Positions 13,130 through 58,723 of a stretch of 64,000 nt of DNA are shown here, in pieces. A program made the translations under genes and the position numbers. The notes below the pieces were generated by a model. The model ran no database searches. It saw only the letters and a list, made by a program, of their open reading frames with translations, and was not told the DNA's origin. How positions within the stretch are numbered: position 1 is the first letter of the stretch; the number at the start of each line of letters is the position of its first letter. The stretch spans positions 1 to 64,000 of the forward strand of contig KZ538526.1 in assembly GCA_000934665.2 (NCBI GenBank). The letters are read 5' to 3'. This DNA is from Catajapyx aquilonaris. Its lineage: Eukaryota.

Positions 13130-13930
13130 GGGAGCGCCGCCGCATACTTTCACGAAAATCCCGTTGGATTAACCCGGATGCAAACTGGACTCAAAATGGC
13201 GGCGGATTGCAATGAACATTCGGAGCTAAAAAATCGAACACCCAAGCGTCCTCCCCTGTTCTAAAATGCGGGCCAGTTCGACCCTCCTCCTGATATCCTG
13301 CCTGGGGTCGGCCCATGGGCTGCCCCCGGGGCTGGCCCCCACTGCAATCGGCTGCGGTTAACGGTGTTCTAATCTGCATCGATAGTATCGGTAGGGGAGT
13401 AGGCGTCCGAAGCGAGCTTCCCCCCGCCCTGAAGTAGGGCTCGCAGAGGCAGGGCAACAAAGGAAGTGTCCCGCTGGCTGGTTGCGTCCGTCCGCGCGTC
13501 CCCCCTGGATAAAGAACATGGGCGTCCGGCCGTGTGAGTATGGGACATGGAGGGGGAATGGAGAGGCTGTGTGTGGGGAGAAGAGACTCTTCCCTTTTTG
13601 GGGGCCGGGGTAGAGGAAGCTGGGCGGGCGGGCTGTGGAGGCGGGTNNNNNNNNNNNNNNNNNNNTGTGGAGGCGGGTTGGTCGGGGGTGGGTGGTGGGT
13701 AGGTAGCGAAAAAGGAGAGTCGGGATGGGGCGTTGGGGTGGGGTTGGGGCGCCTTTTGCTTACGAAAAGGTGGCCGCCAGCTGGAATCGGGGTCAGCAGC
13801 CTAACCTTTTATTTGCGATGATTCTGTTCATGATAGGGGTGGGTCATCCTGCAGGGGCCTAATGCCATGGGGAGGGACGCCTGCCTGCCAACCCCCCTGG
13901 GGAGAAGAAGGGCGGGGGCAATGAGGGACC
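13130..13930 (+). promoter_or_regulatory. GC/CpG island, probable promoter and first exon of the zinc-finger gene; contains a 19-N assembly gap (13647-13665)
   Basis: YY1 consensus CAAAATGGCGGC at ~13192, donor gtgagt at 13534, dense G-runs downstream. Confidence 0.55.
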
Positions 13931-22300: not shown

Positions 22301-25300
22301 TAATATTATTGTATATTTCGCGCTGAATCTGAATCTCTGCTCAGAAGGCTTCTGTCAGGCACAGTTTTTGAGATATATCGTTTTAAAGTTTGGACCGGTT
22401 TACTAGGGGTCTTTCCGAATCAAGTGGGCCGAAATCTTTATACATCATCTCGGATCTTGGTGAAAATAATCACAGATGTACAGACAAATGCCATAATGCT
22501 GCATATCCCGTCTCAGCCACATTGCGCAATACCATTGGGAGGGGAAAAATCGAGAAACTTGGAAAATGGCTGTGTCTGAACGAGTGACTAATGAAATGTA
22601 AAATTAAGTTTTTGTTACATTTGAGAGAAAAACTAATTCCATGGGCGCATTCTGCTGGTGTTTATCTTACTTTTGATATATATGTTCACTGGGTTTTGAC
22701 CAATTCCACTAACCGAAAAATATTCTCCATAGAAGGCATCATTTTCGGCCATTTCCCAAGTTGCTCGGTTTTCCCCCTCCCAATGGTATTGCGCAATGTG
22801 ACTGAAATGGGATGTGTAGCATTATGGAATTTGTCTGTACATCTGTGATTATTTTCACCAAGATCCGAGATGATGATGTATAATGATTTTGGCTCACTTT
22901 ATTTGGAAAGACCCCTAGTAAACCGGTCCAAACTTTAAAATGATATATCTCAAAAACTGTGCCTGACAGAAACCTTCTGAGCAGAGATTCAGATTCAGCG
23001 CGAAATATACAATAAGATTAGCTATTCACAATTTCAGAAAAAAAGAAAAAAATATTTATATTGTAGAACAGTGACATTTTCCGTAGTTTTCTGCCCTTCA
23101 TTTTGGGCCTTATCTCGTAAACAGTGCAAGGTATCACAAACGTAACGAAATATTGGCCCAAAGGGCCACACTTTCCTGTGTTCAGGTTAAGGAAGTGTAC
23201 CTGCGCCCTAAAAAGTGACAACCCGAAAGTGATTTGAGGTCACCTCAGATACGCCCCTCGCGGACCCCATTACAGATGACTCACGTGACCCATATTTTTC
23301 ATGTCATAAGGATCACCCAGCACAACTTTTTTTCACTCTTGCATTACAACTTAAATTAAAATTTTTAAAAAATCGGCCCACCCTATTGTACATGCCTGGC
23401 TAGTCCTTAGTGTCTTACAATTTTCTGTGGAAGTTCATTAGCCATTTTGGCTGTGACAGTGTGATTGTGGAGAAGCTTGAAGGTCTCGTCTCATGCCAAC
23501 TGCCTCGCTTCACAGGTGTAATTCTATGTCATTACTCTGATTCTTGCACCATACATATAATTGGTTATTCAGATGTTGCTATATTTATATATGCAGGATT
23601 AAATTGCCACCTAGTATTAACTAATATGGATTATTGATTGTGTAATAATTAATACACCCATGTAAGTTTATTCATTTTTGTATGGGTTACAGGAGCATCT
23701 TCAACGGCATGAGCGCATCCACACAGGCGAGAAGCCTTTCCCATGCCTCTTCTGTGATAAGCGCTTTGCAAGTAACTACAAATTGAAGCGACATGAACAG
23801 GTCAGTTTCTCGTTTGGTGTGTTAATAGTTGCAAGATAAAATAAGACCTGTTGGCCAGTGTATTTGTGAACTGCATCTCATCTGCTATACGTGCAGAAAC
23901 CAAATTTAATCCAAGCATTTTAACAGAATTGTCATGATATTGGCCAGTCAAAAAGGGATACTGTTCAGGTTGAATTTGCTATTATAATAACTTTTGTTAT
24001 TTCTTAAAATATTCCTATTAATTTGTCCTAACAGATCAGTAATTTTTCCTTTTTTACATGTAATTGCCATATCAATTAGAAGAGTTTAAAATGTACAATT
24101 TGCAAGCAATAATTTAGAAAAATTCCTATTATTATTATCACCTTATGTGTCAGTAGTAATGCAGTCTGCCTAAATGAATTTGGCGTATATGATGGTTTGG
24201 TGTTTTGTGTAGTCCCGGGAGGTTGTCTGCACTGTATACAGTATTATATTTTTATAAAAACATCCATACAGGTCACTTTTAAAAAGAACTAGGGGAAAAG
24301 TAATCGCAAAATGCTGCTGCTGCTTCAACAGCAAACCCTTCATGCTGAGCATTGCTTAGAGGCACTGAACGAAGTTTTTTTAAAATTCCCCACGAACAAA
24401 ATGTGGGCATTGCCATTCCTCATGTATTGGCATTAAAGGTGTTGAAGGAAGCAGTGACTAGTGTTATAACACTAATAATTTTATGTGCTCATTTGCAGGT
24501 GCATACGGGTGAGAAGCCATATGCATGTGTCTACTGTGAAAAGAGATTTGGCAGCAATTACAAACGGAAGCAGCATGAACAGGTTTGTGACATTAAAAAT
24601 ATCTTTAGCTTTTTTTTTTTTTTTTTAATGCAAGTGCCATAAATCTTAAACTCTTTGAAAACCTTTATATTGTTGGTGCATATGTAGTGCAAGACATTAA
24701 AAGCAGCAAGTGTCAGATATACCACATGAGTGTTTTATTGAACTTAATTTGTTTGTTTTTTCTCAGCAACCATGTTTATAAAAAGTGGCAAATTTTTCAA
24801 CCATTGACTGCTTTGCAAAAGCCCATTCTCAGATGTCCCAATTCCTTTCTGCTCCAGTGTAGGAATACTTATGCAGGGGGGAGATTTGAGATCGTCATGC
24901 ATGTGTGGGAATGGTGTGTCTCCTCACCTTGGTCACATAATCTCTTCCTACCTGGAGGCTAGTTTATATGGGTAGTATGCTATGTATAGGCAGGCCATGC
25001 TAACTTATAAATGACGTCATCATTTTGTTTACCAATTTCTAGTCAACGGAAACATGCTGAGCACACCCTTGGAACCTCCCACTTTTGAAGTTTCCGTGGA
25101 GATGCCCTCATGCAACAATTGACGTAAAAATGTGGCAAAAATTACCAAAAGAATACCGTAATTATTGCATAAGGGCATCTCCATGGAAACTTGAAACGTG
25201 GGAGGTTCCCAGGGCGTGTTCGGCATGGTTCTGTTGAGTAGGAATTCGCAAACAAAAGGATGACATTATTTAGAAGTTAGCATGGCCTGCCTATACTATA

Positions 25301-28300
25301 ACACACAAAAAGATTGTCGCACTGTAACCATGTGGTGTCCGCGACACGTTGTTTATCCTGGGTGTTGCCAAGTTACAGGTGTTTATTTGGCAATATTCCA
25401 GAATCCACACCACGTTACTGACTGGTCATTCGGTCCCATGGCCACACAGTCTGGTCGAGGTCGCTGCCGAACACACCTGTGGTACCTCCGACTTTTTCCA
25501 TGGAAATACCCTCACACAGCAATAGGAGTAAGCAGTGTCGAAGTATGCTCTTATTGTTTTATGAGTTCATTTCCATGGAAACAGGAAAAGTGGGAGGTAA
25601 AGGCAATGGATTTCTTAGAGTGAACTGCTGGGCCCATGGCCCCGCCCCCAAACAAACTTCTCTCCTCCCTCCTCCCTCCTCCACAACTTCTCCCCCCCAC
25701 CACTTTGGCACCATGACAACATGTATCCCTCCGCCAGAGCCTTATTCCGATGGTGCTTATGCGCGCCGAAAATAAGTGAAAAGAAGAAATTCGAACACCG
25801 TTGCCGTGGATTCGAACCTGATTCGAACGATGCTTCGAAATTACGCGGGCACGGATCCCGATGCTCTTTTGTCTCTCGCCTTGAAAGTAGTCCCCATGTG
25901 GCAACGTTGCTGATTTTAATTTTTCGCGTAAGTAACTAATAACGCTATTCTAAGTAATGCTTTAGTGTTCATAAATTATGTCAGAACCAAATAATTGATA
26001 TGCGTCGAATTCCTTTTTAAAATACACCGTCAATTACATTTATGTATTTTCACCTGGCAACCTTCCTGTGACGCACGGTCATACAGGCGATCCCATTGGT
26101 TCGCCCGGGGGGGCGTGTCTGTTCACTCTAATACAGGTGATCCCATTGGTTCGCCCAGGGGGGCGTGTCTGTTCACTCTAAGAAATCCGTTCCCTATACC
26201 AGAGGTGTGTTCTGTAGCGACCCGGACCAGACTGTGTGGCCATGGGACCAAATGACTGTCAGCAAATTGGTGTGGATTCTGAAATATCGCCAAAGAAACA
26301 CCCTTAACCTGGCAACACCCAGGATAAACTACATGTCACGGACACCACGCAGATACAGTGTGACAATCCTGTTTATACATGTTATAGTACAGATTAAATT
26401 GATACCAGTCTGTGACATTTTGGGATAGAGCAGAGAATCTTCTTATTACCTAGTGTTTGGGATACAGTTAATGCTGTGTAAAAAATTCCTGATTATTAGT
26501 AAAAATTGTGTCCTTTTGCACAGTTACGATGTTCTAAATATGTTTTTTATTTATGTAGGTGCATACAGGCGAGAAGCCATACGCATGTGTCTTCTGTGAA
26601 AAGAGATTTGGGAACAACTACAAACGGAAGCAGCATGAACAGGTCAGTCTTAATTTTTGCTATCAAATTTTTGCCAAGAAGACTGTGGTAGGATTAGGGT
26701 ATTATCAGTTTTGAGCCACAGTGTGTCTGGGAAAATAATTCATATTGCTCGCCAAAATATTTACGGCCTGGAAAATTGCAAGTTCTGTGCAGGAACCTTT
26801 ATTGTGTGATGTCAAAAGTGGAAAATGTCTTGGAATGGACTAGACGCACTCAGGGCAAGCACTGCTTTAAGTGTGTACCCATCTGAAGTCTTGTCAGACA
26901 TGTGACAAGATGTTAATTTAAAAAATCGACCATTGGGAGTGGAGGTGATGGAAGTGAGAGCAGATAAAAATTGTCTGTATGTGCACTGGTTGAGAGTTTG
27001 GCTTTCAATTGGCCATACATGCATGAACATTGAATGTAGGTTGAAGGAATTATTACTTGATGTCAGCTTAATTTTGTAATGAGACATTGAAGTGTCGTTA
27101 AATGAATTTCTGGAATCCTGAAAATATGTAGTCAAATTGCTACATTTATTCAGTGTAACCCATTTATTTGAAATAATGCCATAAGTAAACTGTCACCACT
27201 GGGAATGACATTTGGGACATGCATTAAGTTTCATTACTAACTAATTTTTTTAAACGCATCCACTCGTAACAGGTAACACAATGCAGTGATAAATGGAGGA
27301 CATAAATGTGAGCAGAAGTTGTGCCTAGTTATTAATTGCTCACTATAACAACTATTTACATAGAATTTAAATAGTTTTAGGTATTAAAACTAATCTAGAG
27401 GTTTGGCAGAAGCCATCTACGCTGAAATCGGGAATTAAAGGTCAACAGCAATTTTTTGCTGAATTTTTAAAAATATTGACAGAAATGCTTGACATCAAAC
27501 CATTTTGAGCCTAAATTGGTGCAGCATTTTGTGGTTATAAATTTATCTCATGGTAGAAAAGTGACAAATCCATACAAACCATGTTACTTGACGGGAAAAC
27601 ACTCGGGTATTGACAACATTTTTGCCCCTGCTTCTATTGTATACATGCTTTGCCCATCCTATCCAGATATGAACAAGTCATGTGAGAAGCAATGGACGGA
27701 AATAATTGCCAAGATTCACTGTATGTTTTCGTGTGAACTCACTGATTGCTGTTTTTTAAATATCACATCACCTAATATCAGAAATAGATCCTCATTTCTG
27801 AGCTTAAAATATGCTGGAAATGATTAATTTACAATAGGATTATTTAGTAAAAACATTGTAAGCTGCTCGTGAAATTCTTGTTATTCTAGTCATGTGATTG
27901 GTGAGATTTTAATAATTCTGCAATGAATGCAAAATCACAATGATCAGGAAATTATGCCTTTTATTATGCCTTTGAAAAATTTAAAATTCTAGCCATTTCT
28001 GAAGGATGCATTTGTTACTACCGCTACACATATTCAAACATGACAACTCATGTTAATGTGGAATATACAGGGTGTTCCACATTTGTGGGTCGGTTTTTTA
28101 TAACTGATGTTGCCCGATAGCAGTTATATTTGTGTAGCTTGCTGTGCCCTGATCCAGATTCCCCATTACTCCCAGGGGGTCGAATATAGCAGTTTCTATA
28201 GAATGAGGCACCTGATTAGGGGCACAACAAGCTACAAAAAATAACTGCTATGAGGCAATATCATTATTTAAAAATTACCCACGAAAATGGAACACCCTGT

Positions 28301-31300
28301 ATTTTGATGTAAGCATGAACAAACATACGAGGAAGCTAAAACCTGTGAATTTTATGCAGGTACATACTGGCGAGAAGCCTTACGCATGTGTCTTCTGTGA
28401 AAAGAGATTTGGCAGCAATTACAAGCGGAAGCAACACGAGCAGGTCAGTCTCGTTTCTTCCCCTTATATTATGTCAGCTCCAATGTTTGAAAATTTCTAT
28501 TAAGTTACATTGCACTTCTAAGAGATAACTGATAATTAGCTAAAATATTTTGCAAGTCTGCCATGTTTTTAGGATCGCTGTAGTAACTTTTTAATAACGT
28601 GGCAAATTTCCTAAGCCTTGTGCCTTACAGATATAGAAAATTTTGGAAGTATGATTGGGTAGGGCACAAAGAAGTTCCTGATCATTTGCTAAATAAACCA
28701 ATTATTGGTTATGAATTTACACCTAAATTATTCTATTGAGAAGTCATTTCCAGGCAACTTAAGTCTTCATGAGCTTCATGATATCTGGATTCATGAGTCT
28801 AATAATATTATTTAAAGTATCCAGAGAGCATGTTTTTTTTTTCCAGTTCAGCTTTAGAAATGAGGATTGATGCAGAATTTGAGAGAGTGATCCTGAATAC
28901 ATCTTATTTTTAAAAAAAGATTCTTGTTCCAAAACTCATCATTTTTGTCATTAAAACGGAGGGCTTAGGCAGAATACTTACATATCACATTATTTGTGAC
29001 TATAAACACGTAATGTTGGCCAGGTTTTTTGTATTTTTCTGCGTGTGTCCAAGGCTCATTTCTCTCGAGAGCCTGATATGGAACAATGTAATGTTCCACT
29101 AATGATGGTAGGATTAATGTTCTCAGCAAATTACATTTATCAAACATTTTGATACAAATTTTGACAAAGCCTAGGCATAAAACAAGTGAGGTTGCTGATT
29201 TAATTCAAGTAGTAACAGGTGAAATCATGAGGAACTTGGCAGAGACTGAGTTCCTGGCGACAGGCGTTTGAAGCTAAAGGGCAAGGAATGTCTCCTTCTA
29301 GTTGCCTTCCAGTTTCTAGTGGTCTCAAAATTTTTAGAAGCCTGTCACCAGGAACTTGGTCTCCCACAACTTCCCCCAAGTTCGCTGTGTTAAGGGGGTA
29401 TCCTGTGATGGTGAAGAACATAATGATGACCCTTTCCCCTTTACCTGATATATGCACCATATGATACTTAATATTTCATTGCCACTATTGCCAAGTTTAT
29501 GACAGCAACTGTTGCTAATTAGTAATGAGGTGTAATGTCTTCAAGACTTTTCAGTCTTTACATCTGTGGATATGTCCATACCTGGTGTGGCGTTCACTCT
29601 AAACTCTAAATAATCATGATGAGTTTTTCTGGCGAGCTGGTGCACATTCATTGAATGGATAACTTAGCATTCTTCTGAAAGCATAATATGATTTGACTGC
29701 ATTGAACAACCTCTATAATATTACAACCTGTGCACTCCATGCAGGTTCATACTGGCGAGAAGCCATACGCGTGTGTCTTCTGTGAAAAGAGATTTGGCAG
29801 CAATTACAAGCGGAAGCAACACGAGCAGGTCAGTCTCGTTTGTTCCATCCACAACTGCAGTATTTCGAAATTATTTTGCTGTTCAGGTGACAACAATAAT
29901 ATGAAATTAATTTTAATGTTGTAAAGTATTGATGCTGGAAAATGGCAATTAATTAGTAATAATTGAATTTTGTTTGCTGAGAAGTAGTAGACACATATAG
30001 ACCCCTGGGTTTAAGATATGGCTGCAAATTTTAATCTTTGAAACTCGTAATTTCTAAAAGACCACTCATGAATTTGACAAGGCCATCTGGCATAACGTCA
30101 TTTTAAAATGTGCGCACTCTATTCAGGTGCATACGGGCGAGAAGCCATACGCGTGTGTCTTCTGTGAAAAGAGATTTGGCAGCAATTACAAGCGGAAGCA
30201 ACACGAGCAGGTCAGTCTCGTTTTCTTCCCTATTTCATGTTTAGAGCCATGGAATTCCATTCTCTTTAGTTGTTCCAAATCAGACAACTTTTTTGTGAGT
30301 CCTGCAATCCTAGATCACGTGTGTTCTGCTGCATATTTAATTCATTACATTTGACTGCTACATTTGCTATTCAGGAAGAGTCAGCTGGTCTTAATTATGA
30401 AGTAACCTTGCTGTTTGGGAATTTTATTCATTTAATCTGGCCTTGGATCTAGAAAACGAAATTGATCGTATGGATCTCATGAAGTGTACCAGATATTGCC
30501 TAGGGATTATTGGGTTGAACCAACATAGTGAAGAAAATTATTCCAATCATTGTTGGGGAGGCTCTTCAATATACACCTGAAATCACTAGAATGCTCGAAC
30601 AAGTAAATCTGGGGAATTTTTCATTCAGATGTCAGTTAAGTTAATTGTATGAACAACCAACACGTTTCAAATAGTAGGTATCTTTTGCTGCATTGCCATC
30701 CTATGTCATCGTGAAGTAAAAGTTTTAGTGATGGTCGTTCTACCATCAAAATTAATGTGGATACTGGGTGTACCAAAGGTGGTGGACTCCACAAGTCCAA
30801 AGTCCAAGCAGGGTGTACAGTTGGATGGAGATTAGCTGGATTACATACTCTGTGATGCAGATGTCTTTTAGGCGGTCCCTCATCATCAGTTTAAGCGTTC
30901 AGGTGATTTTAGGATATTCCAATGTGACAGTATACCCAAGTAACAGTTTTAGCAGTTATCAGTTTGGTTGAACCACATCCCTATTTTAAGATGAAAGTTG
31001 AACCTTAATTAACCAGCCATGTATGATAACAGTTGAAGGAGGAATTAAAGGCAATGTTTTGATAGCTAAATCAGACTACCATTATATTATTAATTTTTAT
31101 TAATTGTTTTGTTCTTCATTTAATGATCTTGCAGCACTGCTGCAGTATCAAGCAATAACTTTTTTTCCCCATCTATTGAATCAATTTTCCTCCAGATACA
31201 AGATTTATGCAATAAAATTATCAGTAAGAACTGCTGGTCCTAGGATGCAGGCTCTTGCAAAGAAGTTGAACATATAATTGTTAACGCCTATTTTTTGATG

Positions 31301-34300
31301 TTCGTTATCCTAATATTAATATTGTAATCTGGTTAAATTTCTGACTTCAGTGACATCAAAGTCAATATTAATATCACAAATTTGAAATATTCATTTTCGT
31401 AAATACTGTAGAACTTATAACTTACCAGAAATTTATGGCTTTTTTTCTCAAAATTCGGAAAAGATTCAACATGAAAGCCCCATTTAAAATGCAGTAGTGA
31501 AATGTTTCAAGAGTTAACAGAGACTTAATTTTTAATATGTAAAGTTTTATAATAAATCAGAGGTTCATTCGTTCATCATTTTTGAAGCTGTTGTCAGCCA
31601 TGAAGAAACAGTGGGAGAGTCATCTTATGTTTATGAGAAAGTAGGAAAATATGGAAGTATATTTTGTATGTAGGGGAAGATAACTTCTATGATTTAATTG
31701 AGGAAAAGTTTTGTGGAACTGATACTTTATTTTCTAAATTACCTTTGTTATTAATTAATGTCTGCGTGCTTCAAAATATTCATTAAATATATCAAAGTTT
31801 TTTTGAAATATCATTTTGGGAGGGTTTTTTCCTCACTTTGAAACATATGTACAGTGTGCACTATCATTGAATTGGCAAACTTGTCAGGTGACATTGTGGT
31901 CACAATATGAACAATTTTATGCTCAGGTCTTAATATTAGCCTGCACTGTAATAGTCACTATAAGTCACTTGAATTGTGTTCAATGCCTGTCTTCAATATT
32001 GTTACTTTTTCTGCCATGCCCAATAATATGGTGTACCCACGATATCAACAAAAACTTGTGGGAACAATTATGCTTGAATTTTAAGGGGGCAAACCTACAT
32101 ATCTACAGCCTTGTGGTGAAAATAAAATATCTTGGTATCCAGTGGCAGTGCCAATCGAGATTTGAATATTAAATTTTCATTAGTGACTACATGTTCATCT
32201 TGTAAGTTTGGTCAGTTCAGTTAAGAAACACTCTGAACATACAAACTTTTTTCTGGGACTCTAAATGAACTACACTGAAGTAAGTTTAATGAACTTGAAT
32301 AGAATGGCAAAATGAAAGGGAACAAAATGCTTTATTGCATTTAGAGTTATTTCTTTATGGCATACAAGGCTGAACCAAAAACTGAACCACCTTGTTTTGA
32401 TTAAAGCGTGTGCACTCCCGGCAGGTGCATACAGATGACAAACCCTTCCCATGTATCTTCTGCGAAAAGCGCTTTTCCAACAATTACAAGCGGAAGCGAC
32501 ATGAGCAGGTCAGTCTCTCCTTCCAGTCTCATCCATTCCAATCAGGTCGCCAAATTTTCCTCACTGTAGTCATCTAAACCCAGAGGTCTATATGGCTGTA
32601 TTGTGTTAATAGGTGTTTGTAATGATATTGATCTGAACGCTAGGGGAATTAAGGTAAATGCATTCGATTCAGGTGCACACGGGTGAGAAGCCATATGCGT
32701 GTGTCTTCTGTGATAAGCGATTCCGGAACAATTACAAACGGAAGCAACATGAACAGGTCAGTGTCTTACATTATTTTTACAGTCACTTGTTCACTTCAAA
32801 ATTTACTCTTTCCCAGTCAGTGTTTCATGCGTGGACATTACTGGCAATAAATGTAATTTTAATGGCAGCAATGGGTAGCTGCTACCAGATAAGGGCTATT
32901 TGGTGTCCGAAGTTATTGTTGGACGTATGCTATTATTTAAAAAATACAACCATATTGTGTAGTTTTGTCATGATTAGCAATTTTTCATATTCATATTCAG
33001 TAAATAATAATGCCTAGATTCGTAGGCTGCATTAATTTGTGACATTCCAGAAGTACATTAGTAAGAGCAATAAGATGTAATTTACCAAATGGTTCACAAT
33101 TCCATTGTGAGTGTTATGCCTGTAGTGCATTATTACTTATGAACTGTTTAATATAATGCAAAAGATAACATACAATATTGTTGCTTTTTTCAAGTCATCA
33201 TGCTAATCTTACAATGTATGCTAGTTGACTCCAGAGACATGGAAAACTGTTGCATAGTCATAAAAATGGTAACTTGTAAATGTCTACAGAATGTCACTAG
33301 ATTACTGTGCTAAACTCTGTCATTTGGTTTATGCTTCAAATAGAATTACTGTATGTAGGTAAGCCAAGAACAAATGGCAGTCAAAAGCCATGCATTATGC
33401 TAATCCCTCATCAAACCAAGTGAAATATTGGGAAGATCAGGTCCGGTCAGTCACATGGACTTGCCATGAAGCACATAATTTACGTGAATGAATACTTTAT
33501 AGGCATAACATGGATTTACTGCACTTCATTATCCTGAGAAATCTTGTGGGTGAATTTAGTGAAATCAAAGATTCATCTGATGCAGATGATCATTAGGGAC
33601 TTATGACACTTACATTAGCACCTGGTTAATGTTAGTAGTTACGCTAAGCAACTACTGCACATGGAGGATATCAGTACTTTTTTAAGGCAAATTTAAAATG
33701 TTCAACATGTATGACTTGTGATAAATAAATTTTAAAATGCCACACATGTTTAGACGGATCTGGGTCATTCCATGTCTTTTCAGTCAGGTTTGGACCCTGC
33801 AGCCAATTTGATTGATATTCTTGGTTTATAATGGCATCGTGGTCTAACGCATTGTATCAAAGCATTTTGAAAATGTTTGATTTTTTACCAGATTGGGGGT
33901 GGGGGGGGGGGGGGTTAATTTGGAGCCATTTCATTGCAAGCCCTTCTGCCCTAATCAAGATACTGACGTGCTTTTGGTCTCCATTTACTTGTGGAAGCTT
34001 CATAAATAGCATGTCAGGGTCACATTTGAAATTGTTAAATTGCGTTAAAAATTGGCCACTTGGAATATAATTCAAACTGGTCACATCAGGTCCAAACCTG
34101 GCCTAATTGGCGTGGCATGCTCCATCTGATGATTCTGAGAGTTACGTAGCACTGTAATGTTCACTTAGATGTAAAGATATATGTATTTAGCTGGTAAATC
34201 ATTAATATTAATAAGATGTATGTTATGCAGAGGTTTAGTTATCACATATATGTACCTTTTAATATATGCATAATTGAAATTTACATGGATCATAATTGCA

Positions 34301-37300
34301 TACAAAATAATGACACCAACAACTGACAATGAGTTCATGAAAGTTCAGTTCTGGTGGGATTGAATAATAATAAAGTTACTTTCTTGACATGTCCACTTTT
34401 TGCACATACATGTAGCTCGAACATTAGTTTCGTAATGAATGTTGTTGTGATGACACTGTTTCTTGAGGAAAGTAAATAAGTTATGACAAGTAATTGGCTG
34501 AATGAGAGAATTGAGGAGCCTGGAACAAAGTAATGTTGCGCAAGGAGAGATTAAACTGCAAACGCTTCATGCAGGTGCACACGGGTGAGAAGCCATATGC
34601 GTGTGTCTTCTGTGATAAACGATTTGGCAGCAATTACAAGCGGAAACAACATGAACAGGTCAGTCTGTCCCATTCCCATTTCCTGTGTTTTAATCACGTT
34701 TGAATTTCCTTCATGAACATTGTCAGTATGGTTTCGTGTCAAATGCTAGTTGTCCAGGTCAAAAATAGATAGTGAATAAATTTAATTAGTCCTGGGTTTA
34801 AAGAGAATGCAGATGTGCACAAAATCCTGCTGGATATCCTACAGGTGACGGTGAATTTGGAAAATACTTTTGTAATATATTGCACTCAGCCAGTCACATT
34901 TGTCATCATCTGGAAATTGACCTTTGACACAATGGTAGAGTGACTCTCAAATTGTTTATAACTGGGACACACTTTAATCGTGGCATGCCTCTCCTCCCAC
35001 ATACACATTCATACACACTTTGCATAGCAGTGGGAGCCATGCAGAGGAGTGATGTCCAGAGCCACTGTTACCATAATGAAGTTTTATGGAGTAAACTTCT
35101 GCTAGGCCAATGTGCAGTGTATTCTAAGTACTTGCATCTTTTTAGTTATAACTAAAAAGATCCAAGTACTTAGTAACAACTTTGGGCAAAATGTGCTACT
35201 TATAGCACATTTTGCCCATAGTTGTTACTTTCATGTAGTTTTTTTTGTACCCCAGTTGAGATGCTCAATTCTTCCCAGTTATGCTCAAATATAGCAGCTC
35301 TATTTGGGTGCAGAAAGCTACACAAAAGTAACAACTTCAGACAGACAGTAACTAAAAATTACCAAAATGCTTGGAATACACTCTTTACCAAATTACAGCC
35401 TCCCACACCTAACTTGCCTAAAAGAATGGGGAACTAGCCTTGGTCTGGGATTTGGGATTTTTGTTCATAACTAGCTAGCCCAGGCCTGTAAACATACATT
35501 CCATCACTCTGTTGCATCAAAATGACATTACTGGATAAATTACGACACATTTAAAAGTGCCTTCAAAATTGGCGGGAAAAACGCGGAGGCCAATCGAAAG
35601 GGTACACCGAAATGCCTGGTTGACTGCGAGAGATGAGGAATTTGACTTTGAATTAACCGCGGACGCGACGGAAAGCATTCGCAAGGCGGCTGTAGGCCAT
35701 CGAGGTGGAGAAAAGGGGCCTTCATGTGCCGAATTCGGGTGACAGATAATTCCTACCAGTTGGCACCACTGCCAGCCCCTTAGCTGATTGAGCGGCGTGA
35801 AGTAAAAACGTGCCCCGGCCGCTATCTTGCTCACGGAATGGGACGGTTGCTAACAACAGCGAAGCATTTTACAACAATGACAGGGCGCGTTCTATAACAC
35901 CATTTTTGCGTTCATTTCACTTCGCGTGACGTCAACATTTTCTAGGGAAACAGTGACGTCACCATTTCCCTACATAAAAACCCCAATTACTCCGGAACGG
36001 GAACTGATATCTTAAAACGGAATATGCCAAAAAAATCTAAAAAATATGGGCGAATTTATTATGTAGTTTCCAAAATGAAGGCTAGTTCCCCATTGTGAAA
36101 AGTTCATGTTTGTAAATGTCCGTTTTTTGCATGTTTAGATTAATTTCTGGAATGTGATGCTTATGCAGTTCTAATGCATATTGAGACTTGGTTTATACCA
36201 GACCTGAAAAAGTGAAGGGCAAGACACCTGTTGGTTTGTCTACCATCATTCCAATACATTCATTCCGTACCTGCAACAATCACATATACCAGTTATAAAT
36301 GCAGCAGTAGTGGAACTCAGGCACATATTAGCACTAAAGTTTGAGTATAGTAGTATTTATTTTTTCACCCATAAGTGGTGCTTTAGGGAGAAAGTATGGC
36401 AGTACCAGTGTACACTATGTATATTTATTTTAGTGATTATTATATTGTCTAATAATTATACTTCATTATTACTGTATTATAAGAGCTTACATGCAGTTAG
36501 GGAAAGTCACCAGGTTTTTTTTTTAAATGGTTATTGTGTTTCTTGCCAAATTTTACAAAGCCCTCACAAGACATTTAAGCTGTCAACATAGATGCTACAG
36601 TCAATATATTTGGATAGCGTTATGTAATAATGTGTCAACCCACAATAATGCCAAAATTGAGTTAAGCCCAGGAGCATATAGCCTACCCAAAGCTTGTGCT
36701 TCATTCAGTTAAAATCAAGCTGGCGAAATCTGCATACTTCTGACATAAATGGCCCAAAAGGACACTGAATTAATTTCACAGGTGTGACATTCAAACCCAT
36801 TTCTTTTCAAAACGGTTTTTGTGTGGGTTGACTCATTATTGCATAATACAATTCATTTAACTCCCAAGTTTACATCTTGAAATAATTAGATAGTGTGCGA
36901 AACTAAATGTAGTGCATACAGTGAACTAGTAAATGCTCATTGCTCTCTAGACTCTAGAGAAAGGTAACAATTTAGTGACTGAATGTATGGTAGATATTAA
37001 TATATCAGTAGTGATGCAATCATAGTTCTCACTGCCAGTAGCTGGTGAAAAGAGGATGAAAGGTCATGCCGGGCCTTCCTCGTTAAATATTTTAATTTAA
37101 TCAAGTAGCTGGTGAAAGGAACTTGACCTTACCACAGGAAAAAATTAATTCCACTTTGTCTGATTAGTGTTCTGGACTACAATGCCAGTTTGGCACAGGC
37201 TTTGTAGCCATGTAACATAAAATAAAAATCATTTGAATCTCTATTAATTTGTCACTTCAGATATGCGTTACGTTTGGAGTGATATTATAAGGGGAGTTTG

Positions 37301-40170
37301 AATACATCTCCATGCCAGTCTCTCATTAGCAATTTGTGTGACTTTAAATTTTCCTGTGACTGTTTGGTTCCCATATCCAATAGGTGTAGTACCTCATAAT
37401 TGAGTGTACCGTGACTGACATACGTATTTTATGTGGTAAGAAGCAGGCTCATTCCATGAAGTGTTGAATTACCAAATAACATATGTTACTATGCACTGGC
37501 TTCATATAATTTTTCTGATAACCAGCAAAGGGTAATTTTGAAAAATAAATTCCAAGCTGTAAAATTACCACTATATTTGTATTGAGTTCTTCAAATGCAG
37601 TGTCTGATTACTGCACATAGCCCTGCATTATCTGTTTTTGACCCATCACACAATAAACGAAGTCAAGCTTCAGCTTATTGCTATAATGTAGAAAACTTTA
37701 TGCAGGCGACTCCACTTGGAATTTAGTGCCATCGTGTATCAGAGACTATGAATTTGTTTCTGAGGAGAATTTTTTGTAATAATTATTCATTTAATACTAG
37801 TGTCATTCTTGATTCTGTAAAGAACGGTCCATAAATTATATGGCATAAAAGTCATTCCAAAAGTCACCTTCAATTTTGTATCAGCATTAAAAATCAATTT
37901 TGAAAGTTCAGTGGTTTGGGGAAGGCATGTTGTGGAGACAAATAAAATGGGTCTCTTTTAACCCAGGGCTATTATGTAACATTTCACACCAATGGGTTTG
38001 AGCCGTGGTTTGAGCTATATATAAAAAAAGATGGGAATACAGAATGGCATCATTTATTGGTGGTTGTGGATGTGCATTGGGTTTGTATTATGTTTAAGCT
38101 AATTACCAAGTGGGATTGGATGTTTAGTCAAACCTAATGGTAAAGTAATAGCATTGAACTTCAGATGAAAGCAGAATTTAATCAGGTGGGAGTTATTGAT
38201 TCTGTAAATATTTTGCATGGCTCCGATTCAATGTTTAAATGCGGATGTGTGTGTCCCAGGTTAGAGATGACCAGAAAATTGAGTTCTAATCACACTACCT
38301 GAAGTTATAAGTAGACTAGTAACTAAATTGTAATTAATAAATGCAAACTCAATGCAGACTACTTGTAGTAATTAATAAAAGCATGTCTTGCAGTGCCTTA
38401 AAACTGACAGGACAAAGTTCATCAAAAATACTCGTATATATGGTACCAGAGTTGGATTGTGTGTTTTGTGGCACATTATTTTTTCTTACTGCTTATTTTT
38501 GCATACCAGTGCACATGTGGTTGCTAAATTATTGACTGTGATGATCACACAGGTCCATACAGGGGAGAAGCCATTCCCATGTGTATTCTGCGACAAGAGA
38601 TTTCGGAACAATTACAAGCGGAAGCAGCATGAGCAGGTCAGTTTTAACATTTGACCATTTTCATTCAGTTATTCAGTAATGTCTTGCGTTTCAATGGAAT
38701 GTGAAATTGAAGAGAGAGAAAAATGTAGTCCATTCCGTCACTTTCCACCATCCATTTCTTTGCATCACATTTCTGAATCATCACATGCAATTAATTGCAA
38801 GGTTTTATGGGAAAAAAAAAGGGCAGGTGGGCTTCTTGAATTACAGGCCATGTTAGTCAAGATTCCTTGTTGCTCCAAAATTGAGCCAGGGCTGTACAGA
38901 TATTGACTGTGTACCGTGAAAATTTTGAATCATGTGGAATATTATTAGAGATAAAATTGCACAGCCTTTGATGAATTCATGTGTGAAGGAACTGTTAATT
39001 AAACTGAAATGTTTCCAACAGGTACACACAGGTGAGAAGCCGTTTGCATGTGTCTTCTGTGATAAGCGATTTCGCAACAACTACAAACGGAAGCAACACG
39101 AGCAGGTAAGTTTTTCTTCCAGTATATTCATGGTGTGATGTGATACCAGGGTTTTCTGCAGTAATGTTGGTCCAGTTTACTTAGTCACTGTGTAAATGCC
39201 TCATTTATTGAACTTGGTTGTGGTCTGGACTAGATCAACTTTTCTTCTCGCCATGTAAATGGCCCTTGTTAACAGCATTACATTGACATCCTCATACATG
39301 TACCACTTGGAGAGTTTTAAGATACATTATGCTGACCTTTGTTCTGACCTTTTCTGTGGGACAGGTCCATACAGGAGAGAAGCCATACCAATGTGCTCTG
39401 TGCCAGCGTCGCTTCCGTGAGAAGAGCAAGCTGAATCGCCATAGTTGTGCTGCCACCTGTGAGCGCCTTCTCCCCTGCAGCCTATGTGGACGCCCAGTGA
39501 AACTCAAACTCACAGAGCATACTGACCTGCAACGGCGGCCATTCTTTGTGTGTACCGTATGCCGACGACGAGCAAGGCAGCAGCCCGCACCCACCATACA
39601 GACAGGTGAGGGGCCAGCGGTCCGATTCAGTAAGTGCTCACATTTTTACCTCTTCACATTTTTGACAGTTGTGATGACATTGTTTGAGACATTTATCTTC
39701 TCTTGCTAGTGGTTGCACCGACAGATATTCTGACTCGTCCAAAGCCCTATGCCTGTCCTCAATGTGGGAAGTCCTATCGCACAGAGCGTAAACTTCATAT
39801 GCACACATTGACCCAACATGCACCGCACTCCGTGGCTGGAACCATGGTACCCCATTCAGCTGCTGCAGCGGTAGTAGCTGCTGCCGCCCACTCCTCCTCT
39901 GTGGTGGCCACACATTCTTCAGTGGTGGCTGCCCACTCATCTGTGGTAGCCGCACATTCGGCAGCTGTCATTGCAGCACATGCAGCACCTCCAGGATCTG
40001 CCATTGTGGTGCCACATTCAGCTGCAGTAGTGGCTGCTGCAGCTGGCCATCACCCTGGGGTCGTAGCACCCCCCATCACCATCCCTGCCGCAGTTGTGTC
40101 TGCTGCACTGGCCATACCAACCATGCCCATTGTCACCACCAGTTCCACTGGTGGTATCGGGAAGAACTGA
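16306..40170 (+). CDS. multi-C2H2 zinc-finger transcription factor, up to ~716 aa / ~15 fingers if all exons are used; exons 16306-16593, 20643-20855, 23693-23800, ten 84-nt exons (listed separately), 39365-39605 (alternative donor 39629), 39710-40170
   Basis: TGEKP linkers, C-x2-C-x12-H-x3-H spacing; junctions phase-consistent (MK|VE, RK|EH, EQ|VH, final phase 1); Ala-rich N- and C-terminal regions; in-frame stops upstream of ATG 16306. Confidence 0.85.
22222..23098. mobile_element. large foldback element, ~350-bp inverted arms (22222-22570 / 22748-23098)
   Basis: e.g. gtatatttcgcgctgaatctgaatctctgctcagaagg vs ccttctgagcagagattcagattcagcgcgaaatatac. Confidence 0.9.
24499..24582 (+). CDS. 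ZF micro-exon E1 [28 protein letters not shown]
   Basis: ttgcag|GTG...CAG|gtttgt, 84 nt, phase 0/0. Confidence 0.9.
24985..25295. mobile_element. foldback MITE, ~130-bp arms
   Basis: tataggcaggccatgctaactt ... aagttagcatggcctgcctata. Confidence 0.85.
25312..26368. mobile_element. ~1.05-kb non-autonomous DNA element with ~170-bp TIRs, an internal small hairpin and a ~40-bp direct repeat (26090-26180)
   Basis: gtttatcctgggtgttgcca...ggtcccatggccacacagtctggtc vs gaccagactgtgtggccatgggacc...tggcaacacccaggataaac. Confidence 0.8.
26559..26642 (+). CDS. ZF micro-exon E2 [28 protein letters not shown]
   Basis: atgtag|GTG...CAG|gtcagt, 84 nt, phase 0/0 (this frame is absent from the ORF track). Confidence 0.9.
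28066..28301. mobile_element. Tc1/mariner-type MITE (TA-CAGGGTG...CACCCTG-TA)
   Basis: tacagggtgttcca / tggaacaccctgta termini, long imperfect arms. Confidence 0.85.
28360..28443 (+). CDS. ZF micro-exon E3 [28 protein letters not shown]
   Basis: atgcag|GTA...CAG|gtcagt. Confidence 0.9.
29745..29828 (+). CDS. ZF micro-exon E4 [28 protein letters not shown]
   Basis: atgcag|GTT...CAG|gtcagt. Confidence 0.9.
30127..30210 (+). CDS. ZF micro-exon E5 [28 protein letters not shown]
   Basis: attcag|GTG...CAG|gtcagt. Confidence 0.9.
32425..32508 (+). CDS. ZF micro-exon E6 [28 protein letters not shown] (most divergent copy)
   Basis: cggcag|GTG...CAG|gtcagt (absent from the ORF track). Confidence 0.85.
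32673..32756 (+). CDS. ZF micro-exon E7 [28 protein letters not shown]
   Basis: attcag|GTG...CAG|gtcagt. Confidence 0.9.
33762..34123. mobile_element. degenerate MITE
   Basis: gggtcattccatg..tcaggtttggacc vs ggtccaaacctgg..cgtggcatgctcc. Confidence 0.5.
34575..34658 (+). CDS. ZF micro-exon E8 [28 protein letters not shown]
   Basis: atgcag|GTG...CAG|gtcagt (absent from the ORF track). Confidence 0.9.
36609..36853. mobile_element. ~240-bp MITE family copy 2
   Basis: gttatgtaataatgtgtcaacccaca ... tgtgggttgactcattattgcataa; aligns with 50911-51146. Confidence 0.75.
38553..38636 (+). CDS. ZF micro-exon E9 [28 protein letters not shown]
   Basis: acacag|GTC...CAG|gtcagt. Confidence 0.9.
39022..39105 (+). 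CDS. ZF micro-exon E10 [28 protein letters not shown]
   Basis: caacag|GTA...CAG|gtaagt. Confidence 0.9.
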
Positions 40171-41024
40171 AGCCACTTGCACAGCACCTGCATGTATGTG
40201 CACCATTTGTAATAACTGCCTACATTGCTCTCCCCACCATTTCTCTGCCCTGCCATTACACGAAGAGTGGGTCCATTATAAATCGTGAGTGACAAAAGAA
40301 GGATCGTGATTCTGGACGACATAGTGTTGCCAGCAATTTTTGTTTATTTTTATGTTAAGAGGTGGACAGAGACTTTACCTGTGTTCTACAAGTGTGTGTG
40401 TGCAGGGTGGGAGTGAAAGCATGCATTTTTTTACAGACTGTTGGGCTTTTTGGCCTTGTGAAGGCCAATTGAGATGATGTGTTCATCACCCAATGAACAT
40501 ACTTTGCTACAGAGATGAGGATAAAGTGGGAAAAAAAAGCTTCATGTCACTTCCTGTTTGTTCTTAAACCAGATTTATTGTACCAATTGTTGCAATTCTA
40601 ACCAGTAGAAAAATATACTATAAGTATACTTGTCTTTATTGAAGCCGTTATATTCACTCCACTTGACTCTTTCATATTTCAGGGCTATGTGCATGCCCCT
40701 GTAGCCAATCAGAGCATGCAGGGAAGGCACGACCCAGCTTTTACTGGAATATTTTCACTGGAATCAAATGCAGGGTTCTTCTATTCCACAAATGGAGTAC
40801 GGATGTCAATTTTGTTGGTCAAAGCAAGTGAGGTTGCCGTGCCGTGACATGGGAACCAAAACGGTTCAACTCCTGCTAGTGCAATGTAGATAGTGAAATC
40901 TTTTTGTACATATTGTATCAAGCCGTTCATTTATTTACTACTGTCCAGTCAAATATTCTACAAGTCACATGAGTAGCAAAGCTGCACAAAAAATATAAAT
41001 AGTGTGGATAACAAAATAAAAACT

Positions 41025-58227: not shown

Positions 58228-58723
58228 TTCTGGAGCTGCCAAAGAGACAATCGTTTCTTCTACACAAGAAGCAGAAGGGGTATCTCTGAGAAGTTGAGAT
58301 CAACCACTTGTGGAATCTGTCTTGGAAGAATGCCAAGGGTAGATAATTATCAGGTTAGGTGGCTGTGTTGCCAAATGTACTGGTCCAATGGGACCGAGGT
58401 CTCCTCACCATCTCAAGCATGCTTCCTTTGCTTGCCACATGTTAAGCACCTGTATAATATCTGCATTTTATACTCCCTCTGGGCTATTTTGGAGTCAAAA
58501 TTTTTAGTTAGGATGATGTAATCTGCAAATTGTAGAAATAAGGCATCTTGGTTCAGTCTAATGCTCACTCCTTTGCAACCTTGTTTGTCCATCTCTTCCT
58601 TGAGGTCTGCTAGATACTAATGAAATGCTTAATACTTTTCACTTCACTTTATTCTTGAGTTGTGTGCCAGGATGTTACATGGACATTTAATGGCTCGTGA
58701 TGATGATATACCTGTCTGTGGAA

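What the first reader, a model, noticed from the sequence alone, without database searches (positions are those of the whole stretch)
23693..39105. Array of ten interchangeable one-finger 84-nt exons: candidate combinatorial zinc-finger splicing cassette
Seen: ten exons (24499, 26559, 28360, 29745, 30127, 32425, 32673, 34575, 38553, 39022), each exactly 84 nt with phase 0 at both ends, separated by introns of 164 nt to ~3.9 kb. Each begins with Val-His, which supplies the last Zn ligand of the previous finger, and ends His-Glu-Gln. The flanking exons use the same interface (23693-23800 ends HEQ; 39365 starts VHTGEKP). Any subset of 0-10 exons (2^10 exon combinations; fewer distinct proteins since E3-E5 encode the same peptide) therefore gives an in-frame protein with intact fingers. 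Known: tandem C2H2 arrays such as KRAB-ZNF and PRDM9 are usually in one exon; duplicated-exon clusters such as Dscam are mutually exclusively spliced; lola and mod(mdg4) swap whole terminal exons. Inference: finger number and identity may be set by splicing, a modular DNA/RNA-binding diversification system I do not recognise as described.
Basis: partly seen in the sequence, partly recalled or inferred. Interest (0 to 1): 0.92.

Follow-up and report, generated by a model that had tools for sequence, protein, structure and literature searches.

The report
Ten tandem one-finger exons, serially spliced
An animal zinc-finger gene carries ten copies of an 84-base exon, each encoding one nearly identical finger; the one transcript data set on hand joins them in series, not in shuffled combinations.

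Summary
Ten 84-nt, phase-0 exons lie at the stated coordinates. Each is flanked by AG and GT and encodes one C2H2 finger unit, VHTGEKP..C..C..HEQ. They are old, selected coding exons: similarity ends about 20 nt into the introns, dN/dS is about 0.06, and no decayed copies exist.

Contigs of one public run (X1, kind not on record) carry GT..AG joints: flank→E1→E2→E3→E4 and E7→E8→E9→E10→terminal exon. One joint crosses E6, which has no cover. Mutually exclusive splicing is therefore excluded. Serial inclusion is the main pattern, and E6 is the only candidate cassette exon. A joint placed as E5→E8 cannot be told from E5→E7, because those exons share identical ends.

The DNA-reading helix positions are almost the same in all ten fingers, (S/N)NYKRK(Q/R). 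Splicing could change finger number but hardly finger identity.

Splicing that changes finger number is known (Cf2, Ikaros), and so is tandem amplification of a domain-spanning exon (teleost piccolo b). No orthologue was found.

Verdict: a real and unusual architecture, a new variant of known kinds. The combinatorial reading is not supported.

The parts
16306..16590 (+). Putative first coding exon: ATG, 95 codons, Ala-rich, donor AAG|gtaagg. Its membership in the gene is inferred only.
   Evidence: ORF and splice donor read. It lies outside the stretch laid. It has no Pfam family and no real homologue: 3 of 3 hits are unrelated repetitive proteins.
20643..20855 (+). Exon holding a C-x2-C-x11-H-x3-H finger and the start of the next finger, ending ...[11 protein letters not shown].
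   Evidence: Translation. Pfam zf-H2C2_2 scores 37.8 bits against a curated cut-off of 40. A contig of run X1 lies on 20641-20836 with 0 differing letters (table 8).
23693..23800 (+). Flanking exon F0 (108 nt). It completes the preceding finger and starts a unit-like finger, [19 protein letters not shown], which keeps the canonical Leu.
   Evidence: Joint F0→E1 is GT..AG at depth 18.6. nhmmer E 2.6e-21 against the unit profile.
24499..24582 (+). E1, one-finger exon, donor CAG|gtttgt.
   Evidence: Joints F0→E1 and E1→E2.
26559..26642 (+). E2, one-finger exon.
   Evidence: Joints E1→E2 (depth 18.5) and E2→E3 (depth 23.7).
28360..28443 (+). E3, one-finger exon. Same peptide as E4 and E5.
   Evidence: Joints E2→E3 and E3→E4. 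The left side of the E3→E4 joint is a 3' end that E3, E4 and E5 share.
29745..29828 (+). E4, one-finger exon.
   Evidence: The joint into E4 has depth 20.9.
30127..30210 (+). E5, one-finger exon. Its last 75 nt are identical to those of E4.
   Evidence: Its bin has cover, but no joint specific to E5 is listed. Near-identity to E4 probably collapses the two in contigs (inference).
32425..32508 (+). E6, the most divergent unit ([28 protein letters not shown]). Open frame, zinc ligands and AG/GT are intact. It is skipped in the only data set, so it is a candidate cassette exon or a recently silenced one.
   Evidence: dN is 0.13-0.18 against dS of 0.7 or more versus the other units. The bin 31840-32506 has depth 0, and a GT..AG joint crosses E6.
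32673..32756 (+). E7, one-finger exon. Its first 44 nt are identical to those of E8.
   Evidence: Joint E7→E8 at depth 21.4.
34575..34658 (+). E8, one-finger exon.
   Evidence: Joints E7→E8 and E8→E9 (depth 30, 66 nt on the shorter side).
38553..38636 (+). E9, one-finger exon.
   Evidence: It lies whole inside the 1399-nt contig (record 7), with joints E8→E9 and E9→E10.
39022..39105 (+). E10, one-finger exon, donor CAG|gtaagt.
   Evidence: It lies whole inside record 7, with joints E9→E10 and E10→39365.
39365..39629 (+). Exon T1 (265 nt). It supplies VH to the last unit, then a degenerate finger and a Cys-rich stretch.
   Evidence: Record 7 covers 39362-39629 with 0 differing letters.
39710..40170 (+). 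Last coding exon: one more C2H2 finger and an Ala/Val/His/Ser-rich tail. The TGA stop ends at 40170. The 3' UTR runs on past 40500.
   Evidence: An 80-nt GT..AG intron, 39630-39709, is spliced out in record 7. Pfam zf-C2H2 E 4.6e-4, below the curated cut-off.

Best explanation
This is one real, expressed, multi-exon C2H2 zinc-finger gene on the + strand of an animal genome. It spans about 16.3 or 20.6 kb to beyond 40.5 kb, and the model protein has about 723 aa and about 15 fingers.

Its central array arose by repeated tandem duplication of a single symmetrical 84-nt exon. That exon starts inside one finger, at the last zinc-binding His, and ends inside the next finger. Every duplication or loss therefore adds or removes exactly one intact finger.

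The copies are old and are kept by purifying selection on the peptide. Long identical runs at exon ends suggest short-tract gene conversion.

The exons are spliced mainly in series, giving a long homotypic array. All its fingers carry almost the same recognition helix, (S/N)NYKRK(Q/R). I infer that the protein reads a long, 3-bp-periodic or otherwise monotonous nucleic-acid target, not many different sites.

Exon E6 is left out in the one sample seen. It is either a regulated cassette exon or a copy that recently fell out of use.

Shown: the exon structure, the selection, the serial joints and the skipping of E6. Inferred: the duplication mechanism, the gene conversion and the kind of target.
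For: Structure: ten 84-nt exons with AG/GT and the same finger-splitting boundary. There are no extra or decayed copies.

Age and selection:
- Similarity between units is confined to the exon plus about 5-25 nt.
- In-register flank identity drops to 0.1-0.45 beyond 20 nt, with one exception: the E4-E6 upstream flank is 0.6 in the second 20-nt window.
- Gapped scores of the 40-240-nt flanks give z from -1.1 to 3.6 in the 6 pairs tested.
- Mean dS is 1.07 over the 39 of 45 pairs where it could be corrected; the other 6 pairs are saturated. Mean dN is 0.061.
- 22 of 28 third codon positions vary, against 4 first and 6 second positions.
- Identical runs: the E7/E8 prefix of 44 nt and the E3/E4/E5 suffix of 57-75 nt.

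Expression and serial splicing:
- GT..AG joints F0→E1 (depth 18.6), E1→E2 (18.5), E2→E3 (23.7) and E3→E4 (20.9).
- A joint from an E3/4/5-type donor to an E7/8-type acceptor (12.1).
- Joints E7→E8 (21.4), E8→E9, E9→E10 and E10→T1 (30 each), and the 80-nt last intron.
- One 1399-nt contig carries E8 (66 nt), E9, E10, T1 and the last exon with 0 differing letters.
- 9 of 30 bins, all intronic, have no cover.

Homotypic helices.

A precedent for the mechanism is teleost piccolo b. There a single exon encoding a zinc-finger domain that spans an intron is amplified 8-16 times by gain and loss of single exons (PMC3484663, abstract and passages).
Against: - Only one run, of unrecorded kind, was available, and only as contigs. 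Contigs drop rare isoforms and break at the repeated exon ends.
- The joints E4→E5 and E5→E7 are not individually resolved, and no single contig spans the whole array.
- The joint out of the E3/4/5 donor has a lower depth (12.1) than its neighbours (18.5-30). I cannot explain this.
- No orthologue was found, so conservation of the architecture across species is untested.
- The ten units carry Arg where canonical fingers have the core Leu. Solved fingers mostly match only profile positions 1-18 or 1-21, not the helix. Normal folding and DNA binding are therefore assumed, not shown.
- The first exon, 16306-16590, is a guess.
Confidence: 0.68

Rival explanations
1. Combinatorial cassette splicing: each of the ten exons is independently included or skipped, giving many isoforms with different finger numbers and orders.
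For: All exons are 84 nt, phase 0-0, with the same finger-splitting boundary, so every subset is in frame. Polypyrimidine tracts are modest (9-13 of 20). Nine of the eleven donors in F0 and E1-E10 are CAG|gtcagt, with C at position +3. From memory, that is an uncommon donor base and could make these exons regulatable. E6 is skipped in X1.
Against: No joint listed skips E1, E2, E8, E9 or E10. All resolved joints link neighbours. Depth is steady along the 3' chain (30, 30, 30). The one apparent skip, placed as 30206→34571 (E5→E8), is equally well E5→E7, because E7 and E8 share their first 44 nt and E3, E4 and E5 share their last 57-75 nt. The fingers have near-identical recognition residues, so combinations would give little diversity. 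Strong purifying selection on every unit fits constant use.
Confidence: 0.12
2. Dscam-like mutually exclusive splicing: exactly one of the ten exons enters each mRNA.
For: Tandem arrays of similar exons of equal length are the hallmark of such clusters (recalled knowledge, not from a call).
Against: Neighbouring units are joined to each other in contigs: E1→E2→E3→E4 and E7→E8→E9→E10. One contig holds three units in a row.
Confidence: 0.01
3. The architecture is as described, but the array does not read periodic DNA. The very basic, Leu-less fingers (KRK in the helix) would bind RNA or proteins, or act as a charged spacer.
For: Arg replaces the canonical core Leu in all ten units. The helix has no close match among solved DNA-binding fingers: alignments mostly end at profile position 18-21 of 28. 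From memory, C2H2 fingers such as those of TFIIIA also bind RNA.
Against: The canonical C-x2-C-x12-H-x3-H spacing and the TGEKP linkers, which are typical of DNA-binding polydactyl arrays (recalled), are kept in every unit. No direct test was possible.
Confidence: 0.3
4. Dead or artefactual array: pseudo-exons, a collapsed or expanded assembly, or a non-coding locus.
For: No annotated orthologue or identical protein turned up in the protein searches.
Against: Each unit has its own synonymous differences and its own unique introns. All frames are open. dN/dS is about 0.06. Spliced contigs match the window with 0 differing letters over 1059 nt.
Confidence: 0.02

Closest known systems
Teleost piccolo b (pclob) zinc-finger exon amplification (PMC3484663; abstract and four passages read)
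   Same: A single exon encoding a zinc-binding domain is tandemly amplified (8-16 copies). The domain spans the intron, so each exon carries the end of one domain and the start of the next. Copies are gained and lost as single exons.
   Different: The Piccolo domain is a roughly 60-aa, four-CXXC finger of a synaptic protein, not a 28-aa C2H2 DNA-binding finger. Copy-number change between species is documented there and could not be tested here.
Drosophila Cf2 and other fly zinc-finger genes with finger-changing isoforms (PMC3668361 passages; PMC3245913 figure legend; the primary papers Hsu 1992 and Gogos 1992 were seen only as references)
   Same: Alternative splicing adds or removes whole C2H2 fingers in frame and changes DNA recognition. 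28 fly genes do this, 10 of them with internal fingers.
   Different: Those cases involve one or two fingers with distinct recognition residues. According to the legend, Cf2 uses an alternative 5' splice site. Here there are ten near-identical single-finger exons, and apart from the skipping of E6 no alternative use has been demonstrated.
IKZF1 / Ikaros (PMC12896614, passages)
   Same: Finger-bearing exons (4 and 6) are skipped in frame, giving isoforms with four, three or two DNA-binding fingers. Finger number itself matters for function.
   Different: Ikaros has four non-identical fingers on three exons, not an amplified homotypic exon array. No sequence relationship was found.
KRAB-ZNF / PRDM9-type polydactyl arrays
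   Same: Long tandem arrays of 28-aa C2H2 units joined by TGEKP linkers.
   Different: In those genes the zinc-finger domain is described as one exon (PMC2443715, figure legend passage). From memory, PRDM9 arrays vary at the DNA-contacting positions. Here each finger has its own exon and the contact positions are nearly invariant. No KRAB, SCAN or SET domain was seen in the exons scanned.
Dscam-type mutually exclusive exon clusters (recalled, not from a call)
   Same: Tandem arrays of duplicated exons of equal length.
   Different: Here the neighbouring exons are joined to one another in the same transcript.

Membership tests
C2H2 (Krueppel/TFIIIA-type) zinc-finger proteins | C-x2-4-C-x12-H-x3-5-H ligand spacing | tested here: met
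   All ten units, once joined to the next exon's Val-His, read C-x2-C-x12-H-x3-H. The regex scan of the six frames finds them.
C2H2 (Krueppel/TFIIIA-type) zinc-finger proteins | TGEKP-type linker between fingers | tested here: met
   HTGEKP is present in 9 of 10 units and HTDDKP in E6.
C2H2 (Krueppel/TFIIIA-type) zinc-finger proteins | Significant match to curated models or solved fingers | tested here: inconclusive
   Pfam zf-H2C2_2 and zf-C2H2 hit the flanking exons but score below the curated cut-offs: 37.8 against 40 bits, and 20.9 against 25.2 bits. The single 28-aa units were not scanned against Pfam. The unit profile matches solved polydactyl proteins (ZNF568 at 2.6e-24; 187 sequences at E 0.01 or better), mostly over profile positions 1-18 or 1-21.
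C2H2 (Krueppel/TFIIIA-type) zinc-finger proteins | Conserved hydrophobic core (Phe, and Leu at helix position 4) | tested here: not met
   Phe is present. Helix position 4 is Arg in all ten units, and Leu only in flank F0. The family consensus CX2-4CX3FX5LX2HX3-4H is quoted in PMC2443715.
Mutually exclusive tandem exon clusters (Dscam type) | Only one exon of the cluster in any one mRNA | tested here: not met
   Joints link neighbouring units, and one contig holds E8, E9 and E10.
Cassette-exon finger-number isoforms (Cf2 / Ikaros type) | Transcripts both with and without a given finger exon in the same organism | tested here: inconclusive
   E6 is skipped and uncovered in X1, but no transcript containing E6 was seen. 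No skipping of the other nine exons is listed. Only one sample was available, and only as contigs.
Tandem amplification of a domain-spanning symmetrical exon (piccolo b type) | Repeated exon of constant length and phase, with the domain split by the intron | tested here: met
   Ten exons of 84 nt, phase 0-0, with the boundary inside H-x3-H.
Tandem amplification of a domain-spanning symmetrical exon (piccolo b type) | Copy number differs between related species | not testable with these tools
   No genome is held for the window, and no eukaryote genome collection is on hand. The metagenome scans found no relative: 0 matches, and 0 of 80 loci carry the helix motif.
KRAB-ZNF / PRDM9-type arrays | Array in one exon, KRAB/SCAN/SET effector domain, variable contact residues | tested here: not met
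   There is one finger per exon. No such domain appears in the exons scanned. Contact residues are nearly invariant.

The most novel reading that the evidence does not exclude
The gene is a natural 'adjustable ruler'. It would be a homotypic chain of up to eleven fingers of one specificity, reading a trinucleotide-periodic tract such as a microsatellite or satellite. The chain length, and with it the minimum tract length bound, would be set by regulated inclusion of interchangeable one-finger exons, E6 being the first visible case. From the recalled recognition code, Gln at position 6, Lys at 3 and Ser/Asn at -1 might favour an A-G-A/N type triplet, that is, a GAA-like repeat. From memory, engineered chains of identical fingers aimed at CAG repeats show such length-dependent selectivity. 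No natural splicing-tuned equivalent appeared in my ten literature searches.
Probability: 0.1. Interest if true: 0.75.

Novelty: new variant of a known kind. Interest (0 to 1): 0.36.

Why it matters
If the architecture is as described, it is a clean natural example of how a polydactyl DNA-binding array can grow one finger at a time by exon duplication. The usual route is replication slippage inside a single large exon. The intron sits inside the finger, so every gain, loss or skip is harmless to the fold.

The invariant recognition helix is the opposite of the diversifying pattern of PRDM9 and KRAB-ZNF arrays. It points to a protein built to read a monotonous target.

The array also gives splicing researchers ten near-identical exons in different intron contexts, one of which (E6) behaves differently.

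It does not, on present evidence, reveal a new combinatorial diversification system.

Tried and rejected
- Whole genome: none is held for this window, so paralogues and copy number elsewhere could not be checked.
- Sequencing runs: no RNA holder is listed. One run of unrecorded kind, X1, held half of the sampled words. I treat X1 as cDNA-like only because its contigs carry exact GT..AG joints and leave 9 of 30 bins, all intronic, uncovered.
- Joint 24524→39367 (AT..GT, 23 nt on the shorter side): considered as a skip of the whole array. I rejected it. It lies inside exons and is non-canonical, and the contig's loose end (21 letters before 24501) does not match this gene. It is probably a transcript of another zinc-finger gene laid at 90% likeness.
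- Joint 25661→26092 (CT..AT): it lies in intronic inverted repeats and is not a splice.
- Depth sum at E8 (12.1 + 21.4 ≈ 30): considered as evidence for two isoforms merging at E8. I rejected it, because the 12.1 joint cannot be assigned to E7 or E8 (44-nt identical prefix).
- Orthologue searches:
  - Exon T1 gave 22 hits, exon 20643-20855 gave 28, and an E3 read-through gave 6. All were generic zinc-finger proteins at 27-67% local identity.
  - The N-terminal exon searched against 1.84 billion representatives gave 3 hits, all unrelated repetitive proteins.
  - A degenerate DNA pattern of the helix found 0 matches in metagenome contigs.
  - A profile scan kept 80 loci at 46-76% identity, and 0 of 80 carry the [SN]NYK[RL]K[QR]H motif.
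- ZNF384/Nmp4 (an idea from memory): rejected. That family is the Rotund/Lin-29 group with 5-6 fingers (PMC2889900, passages), and it never appeared among the hits.
- Taxon: the Atlas look-up of the TMEM209-like exon was uninformative. The MRPS12-like ORF matches mammalian mitoribosomal uS12m best (1.7e-41), so I say only 'animal, possibly vertebrate'.
- Rfam: 0 matches in the window.
- Earlier findings of this scan: nothing relevant.
- Literature phrase searches for one finger per exon or 84-nt exons returned 0 papers. This covers only the held open-access library.
- Structure and complex prediction were not run. The multi-finger protein exists only as joined exons, and single units are under 30 aa.
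Full report
**1. The observation**

The window is eukaryotic DNA, about 35-50% G+C, with 19 N at 13647-13665. At each of the ten stated starts there is an 84-nt open stretch, preceded by AG and followed by GT. Each translates to VHTGEKP(Y/F)(A/P)C(V/I)(F/Y)C(E/D)KRF..NYKRK(Q/R)HEQ.

The intron always falls after the second residue of the H-x3-H motif. Each exon therefore supplies the last His and the linker of one finger, and the two Cys and first His of the next. The upstream exon 23693-23800 ends the same way (…NYKLKRHEQ). The downstream exon 39365 begins [10 protein letters not shown]. Introns within the array measure 698, 1976, 1717, 1301, 298, 2214, 164, 1818, 3894, 385 and 259 nt. The description is correct in every detail I could check.

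**2. These are real, selected exons, not chance or decay**

- A self-comparison of 20-41 kb shows that similarity between units covers only the exon and about 5-25 flanking bases. Matches are 87-125 nt long at 76-96% identity.
- In-register flank identity falls to 0.1-0.45 beyond 20 nt, apart from the E4-E6 upstream flank (0.6 in the second 20-nt window). Gapped comparison of the 40-240-nt flanks gives z from -1.1 to 3.6 in the six pairs tested.
- Mean dS among the ten exons is 1.07 over the 39 of 45 pairs where it could be corrected. The other six pairs are saturated. Mean dN is 0.061.
- 22 of 28 third codon positions vary, against 4 first and 6 second positions.
- An nhmmer profile of the units finds the ten exons (E 1e-27 to 1e-32, by construction), the two flanking relatives (2.6e-21 and 4.6e-07) and one weak match to the finger linker of exon 20643-20855 (E 0.012). 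Nothing else falls below E 0.8, so the long introns hold no decayed copies.
- Even the divergent E6 has dN of 0.13-0.18 against dS of 0.7 or more. It has been under coding constraint for most of its history.
- Long identical runs sit beside unalignable introns: E7/E8 share their first 44 nt, and E3/E4/E5 share their last 57-75 nt. This suggests short-tract gene conversion or nucleotide-level constraint at the exon ends (inference).

**3. The gene**

My model is:
- a possible first exon 16306-16590 (ATG, Ala-rich, unverified);
- exon 20643-20855;
- exon 23693-23800;
- E1 to E10;
- exon 39365-39629;
- an 80-nt intron;
- a last coding exon 39710-40170, ending in TGA.

This gives 723 aa, with 13 fingers matching the strict regular expression plus two near-canonical ones. 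Pfam sees zinc-finger signatures in the flanking exons, but below its curated cut-offs, and finds nothing in the N-terminal exon.

Neighbouring genes are unrelated. They are a BTB ORF, an MRPS12-like ORF, a kinase, a GPCR, two short-chain dehydrogenase copies and a TMEM209-like gene.

**4. Transcript evidence**

One public run, X1, held half of the sampled words of 38500-41000. Its kind is not on record, it totals 32 million letters, and it is kept as contigs. No run on record as RNA was listed.

I laid X1 on 20501-40500. Its contigs leave 9 of 30 bins, all intronic, uncovered. They carry exact GT..AG joints at these junctions:

| Junction | Depth |
|---|---|
| 23800\|24499 (F0→E1) | 18.6 |
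| E1→E2 | 18.5 |
| E2→E3 | 23.7 |
| E3→E4 | 20.9 |
| joint placed as 30210\|34575 | 12.1 |
| E7→E8 | 21.4 |
| E8→E9 | 30 |
| E9→E10 | 30 |
| E10→39365 | 30 |
| 39629\|39710 | 30 |

One 1399-nt contig contains 66 nt of E8, all of E9 and E10, and both terminal exons, with 0 differing letters over the 1059 nt listed. I therefore read X1 as cDNA-like. If it were DNA, the joined form would be a processed copy, which would still prove the splicing pattern.

These joints exclude mutually exclusive splicing and show serial inclusion as the main pattern.

**5. What the joints cannot say**

The joint placed as E5→E8 has only 24 nt on its shorter side. The donor-side sequence is common to E3, E4 and E5, and the first 44 nt of the acceptor are common to E7 and E8. 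A short k-mer contig cannot tell E5→E8 from the expected E5→E7. I do not count it as skipping of E7.

Under either placement the joint crosses E6. The bin holding E6 (31840-32506) has depth 0, while every other unit has cover. E6 is only 77-83% identical to the other units, so no contig from them could have been laid there. Skipping of E6 is therefore the one alternative event supported.

No joint specific to E4→E5 is listed. E4 and E5 differ at two bases only, so the contig builder probably merged them (inference). The lower depth of the 12.1 joint remains unexplained.

**6. Mechanism**

The helix positions -1 to 6 read SNYKRKQ or NNYKRKQ in nine units and NNYKRKR in E6. The units differ mainly outside the contact positions: Y/F and A/P before the first Cys, E/D after the second Cys, and G/R/S after the Phe.

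Splicing could thus change how many fingers there are, but hardly which sequence each one reads.

A chain of ten or eleven fingers of one specificity is best suited to a long target with 3-bp periodicity or a monotonous composition (inference). Which target that is cannot be read from the sequence with confidence.

Two features are atypical. Arg sits at the canonical core Leu position in all ten units, while the flank finger keeps Leu. Solved fingers align mostly to profile positions 1-18 or 1-21, not to the helix. An RNA- or protein-binding role therefore stays open.

**7. Comparison with the known**

- Splicing that changes finger composition is established. Cf2 is the classic case, and 28 Drosophila zinc-finger genes have such isoforms, 10 of them with internal fingers (PMC3668361, passages). 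The male form of Cf2 gains two fingers (PMC3245913, figure legend). IKZF1 isoforms have four, three or two DNA-binding fingers through skipping of exons 4 and 6 (PMC12896614, passages).
- Tandem amplification of a single exon whose zinc-binding domain spans the intron is described for teleost piccolo b. It has 8-16 copies, gained and lost one exon at a time (PMC3484663, abstract and passages).
- In typical KRAB/SCAN zinc-finger genes the finger domain is drawn as one exon (PMC2443715, passage).
- I found no description of a C2H2 gene with ten single-finger exons. Three phrase searches returned no paper, and seven broader ones returned nothing closer. These searches cover only the held open-access library. 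From memory, some multi-exon finger genes such as TFIIIA have introns near finger borders. I could not check this here.

**8. Relatives**

No orthologue was found.
- Three word-indexed protein searches gave only generic zinc-finger proteins.
- A full HMMER search with the N-terminal exon gave three unrelated repetitive proteins.
- A degenerate DNA pattern found nothing in metagenome contigs.
- Of 80 metagenome loci kept by a profile scan, 0 carry the helix motif.

No genome is held for the window, and no eukaryote genome collection was on hand. Cross-species copy number is therefore untested, and 'lineage-restricted' is only a possibility.

**9. Verdict**

The structure is real, expressed and unusual. 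The combinatorial-splicing interpretation is not supported by the one data set available, and the near-identity of the fingers weakens it further.

I class the finding as a new variant of known kinds: domain-spanning exon amplification, and finger-number isoforms. The interest is moderate and rests on three points:
- the invariant recognition helix;
- the intron-in-finger design;
- E6 as a testable alternative exon.

Noticed in passing
window 5824-7411 (+): A BTB/POZ-domain ORF (Pfam E 1.9e-12) is followed by an ORF holding a lone C2H2-like finger (…FRCPICRAPFRSQVLYDDHVENLH…). It is probably a separate BTB-zinc-finger gene upstream, since an MRPS12-like ORF (9899-10405, +) lies between it and the finger-array gene.
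   Followed up: partly
window 1642-2073, 2779-3213, 3824-4219 (-): Three neighbouring minus-strand ORFs look alike. Each carries a ...KFRNLKV.Y- or ...KLRNLKV.Y-type motif. The first matches Pfam Myb_DNA-bind_4 (E 2.3e-9). This may be a small tandem family of Myb/SANT-like genes. Only the first ORF was scanned.
   Followed up: partly
window 57362-58299 and 58724-59831 (-): Two tandem, closely similar short-chain dehydrogenase gene copies share long identical peptide stretches in the ORF list. One was scanned and matches Pfam adh_short at E 7.9e-12.
   Followed up: no
window 35175-36508 (intron between E8 and E9): Contig depth here (71 and 47) is far above that of the gene's exons. The contigs differ from the window at 5-19 positions, which looks like transcripts of other copies of a repeat or transposon family. 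Contigs with 0 differences also lie at 36310-36563 and 37298-37641 (depth 2-3), possibly from unspliced RNA.
   Followed up: no
window 22216-23104; also 24975-25306, 25291-26392, 28062-28305, 35124-35229: Inverted repeats and palindromes sit inside the introns. The largest has arms of about 350 nt at 91% identity, about 180 nt apart (a foldback or MITE-like element), and has contig cover at depth 11.
   Followed up: no
window 23801-39021 (donor sites): Nine of the eleven donors of F0 and E1-E10 read CAG|gtcagt, with C at intron position +3, and six continue as gtcagtct. From memory C is rare at +3. The shared odd donor was probably inherited with the duplicated exon and may matter for how the exons are recognised.
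   Followed up: partly
window 39800-40170 and 16400-16470, 20660-20730: The model protein has Ala/Val/His/Ser-rich low-complexity tracts at both ends (for example [11 protein letters not shown] repeats), and a similar Ala-rich tract in exon 20643-20855. This likeness is my only reason to link the 16.3-kb exon to this gene.
   Followed up: no
window 13200-13810: A GC-rich stretch holds the 19-N assembly gap (13647-13665) and long open frames on both strands with Pro-rich translations. It looks like a CpG-island-like or repeat region, not a gene.
   Followed up: no
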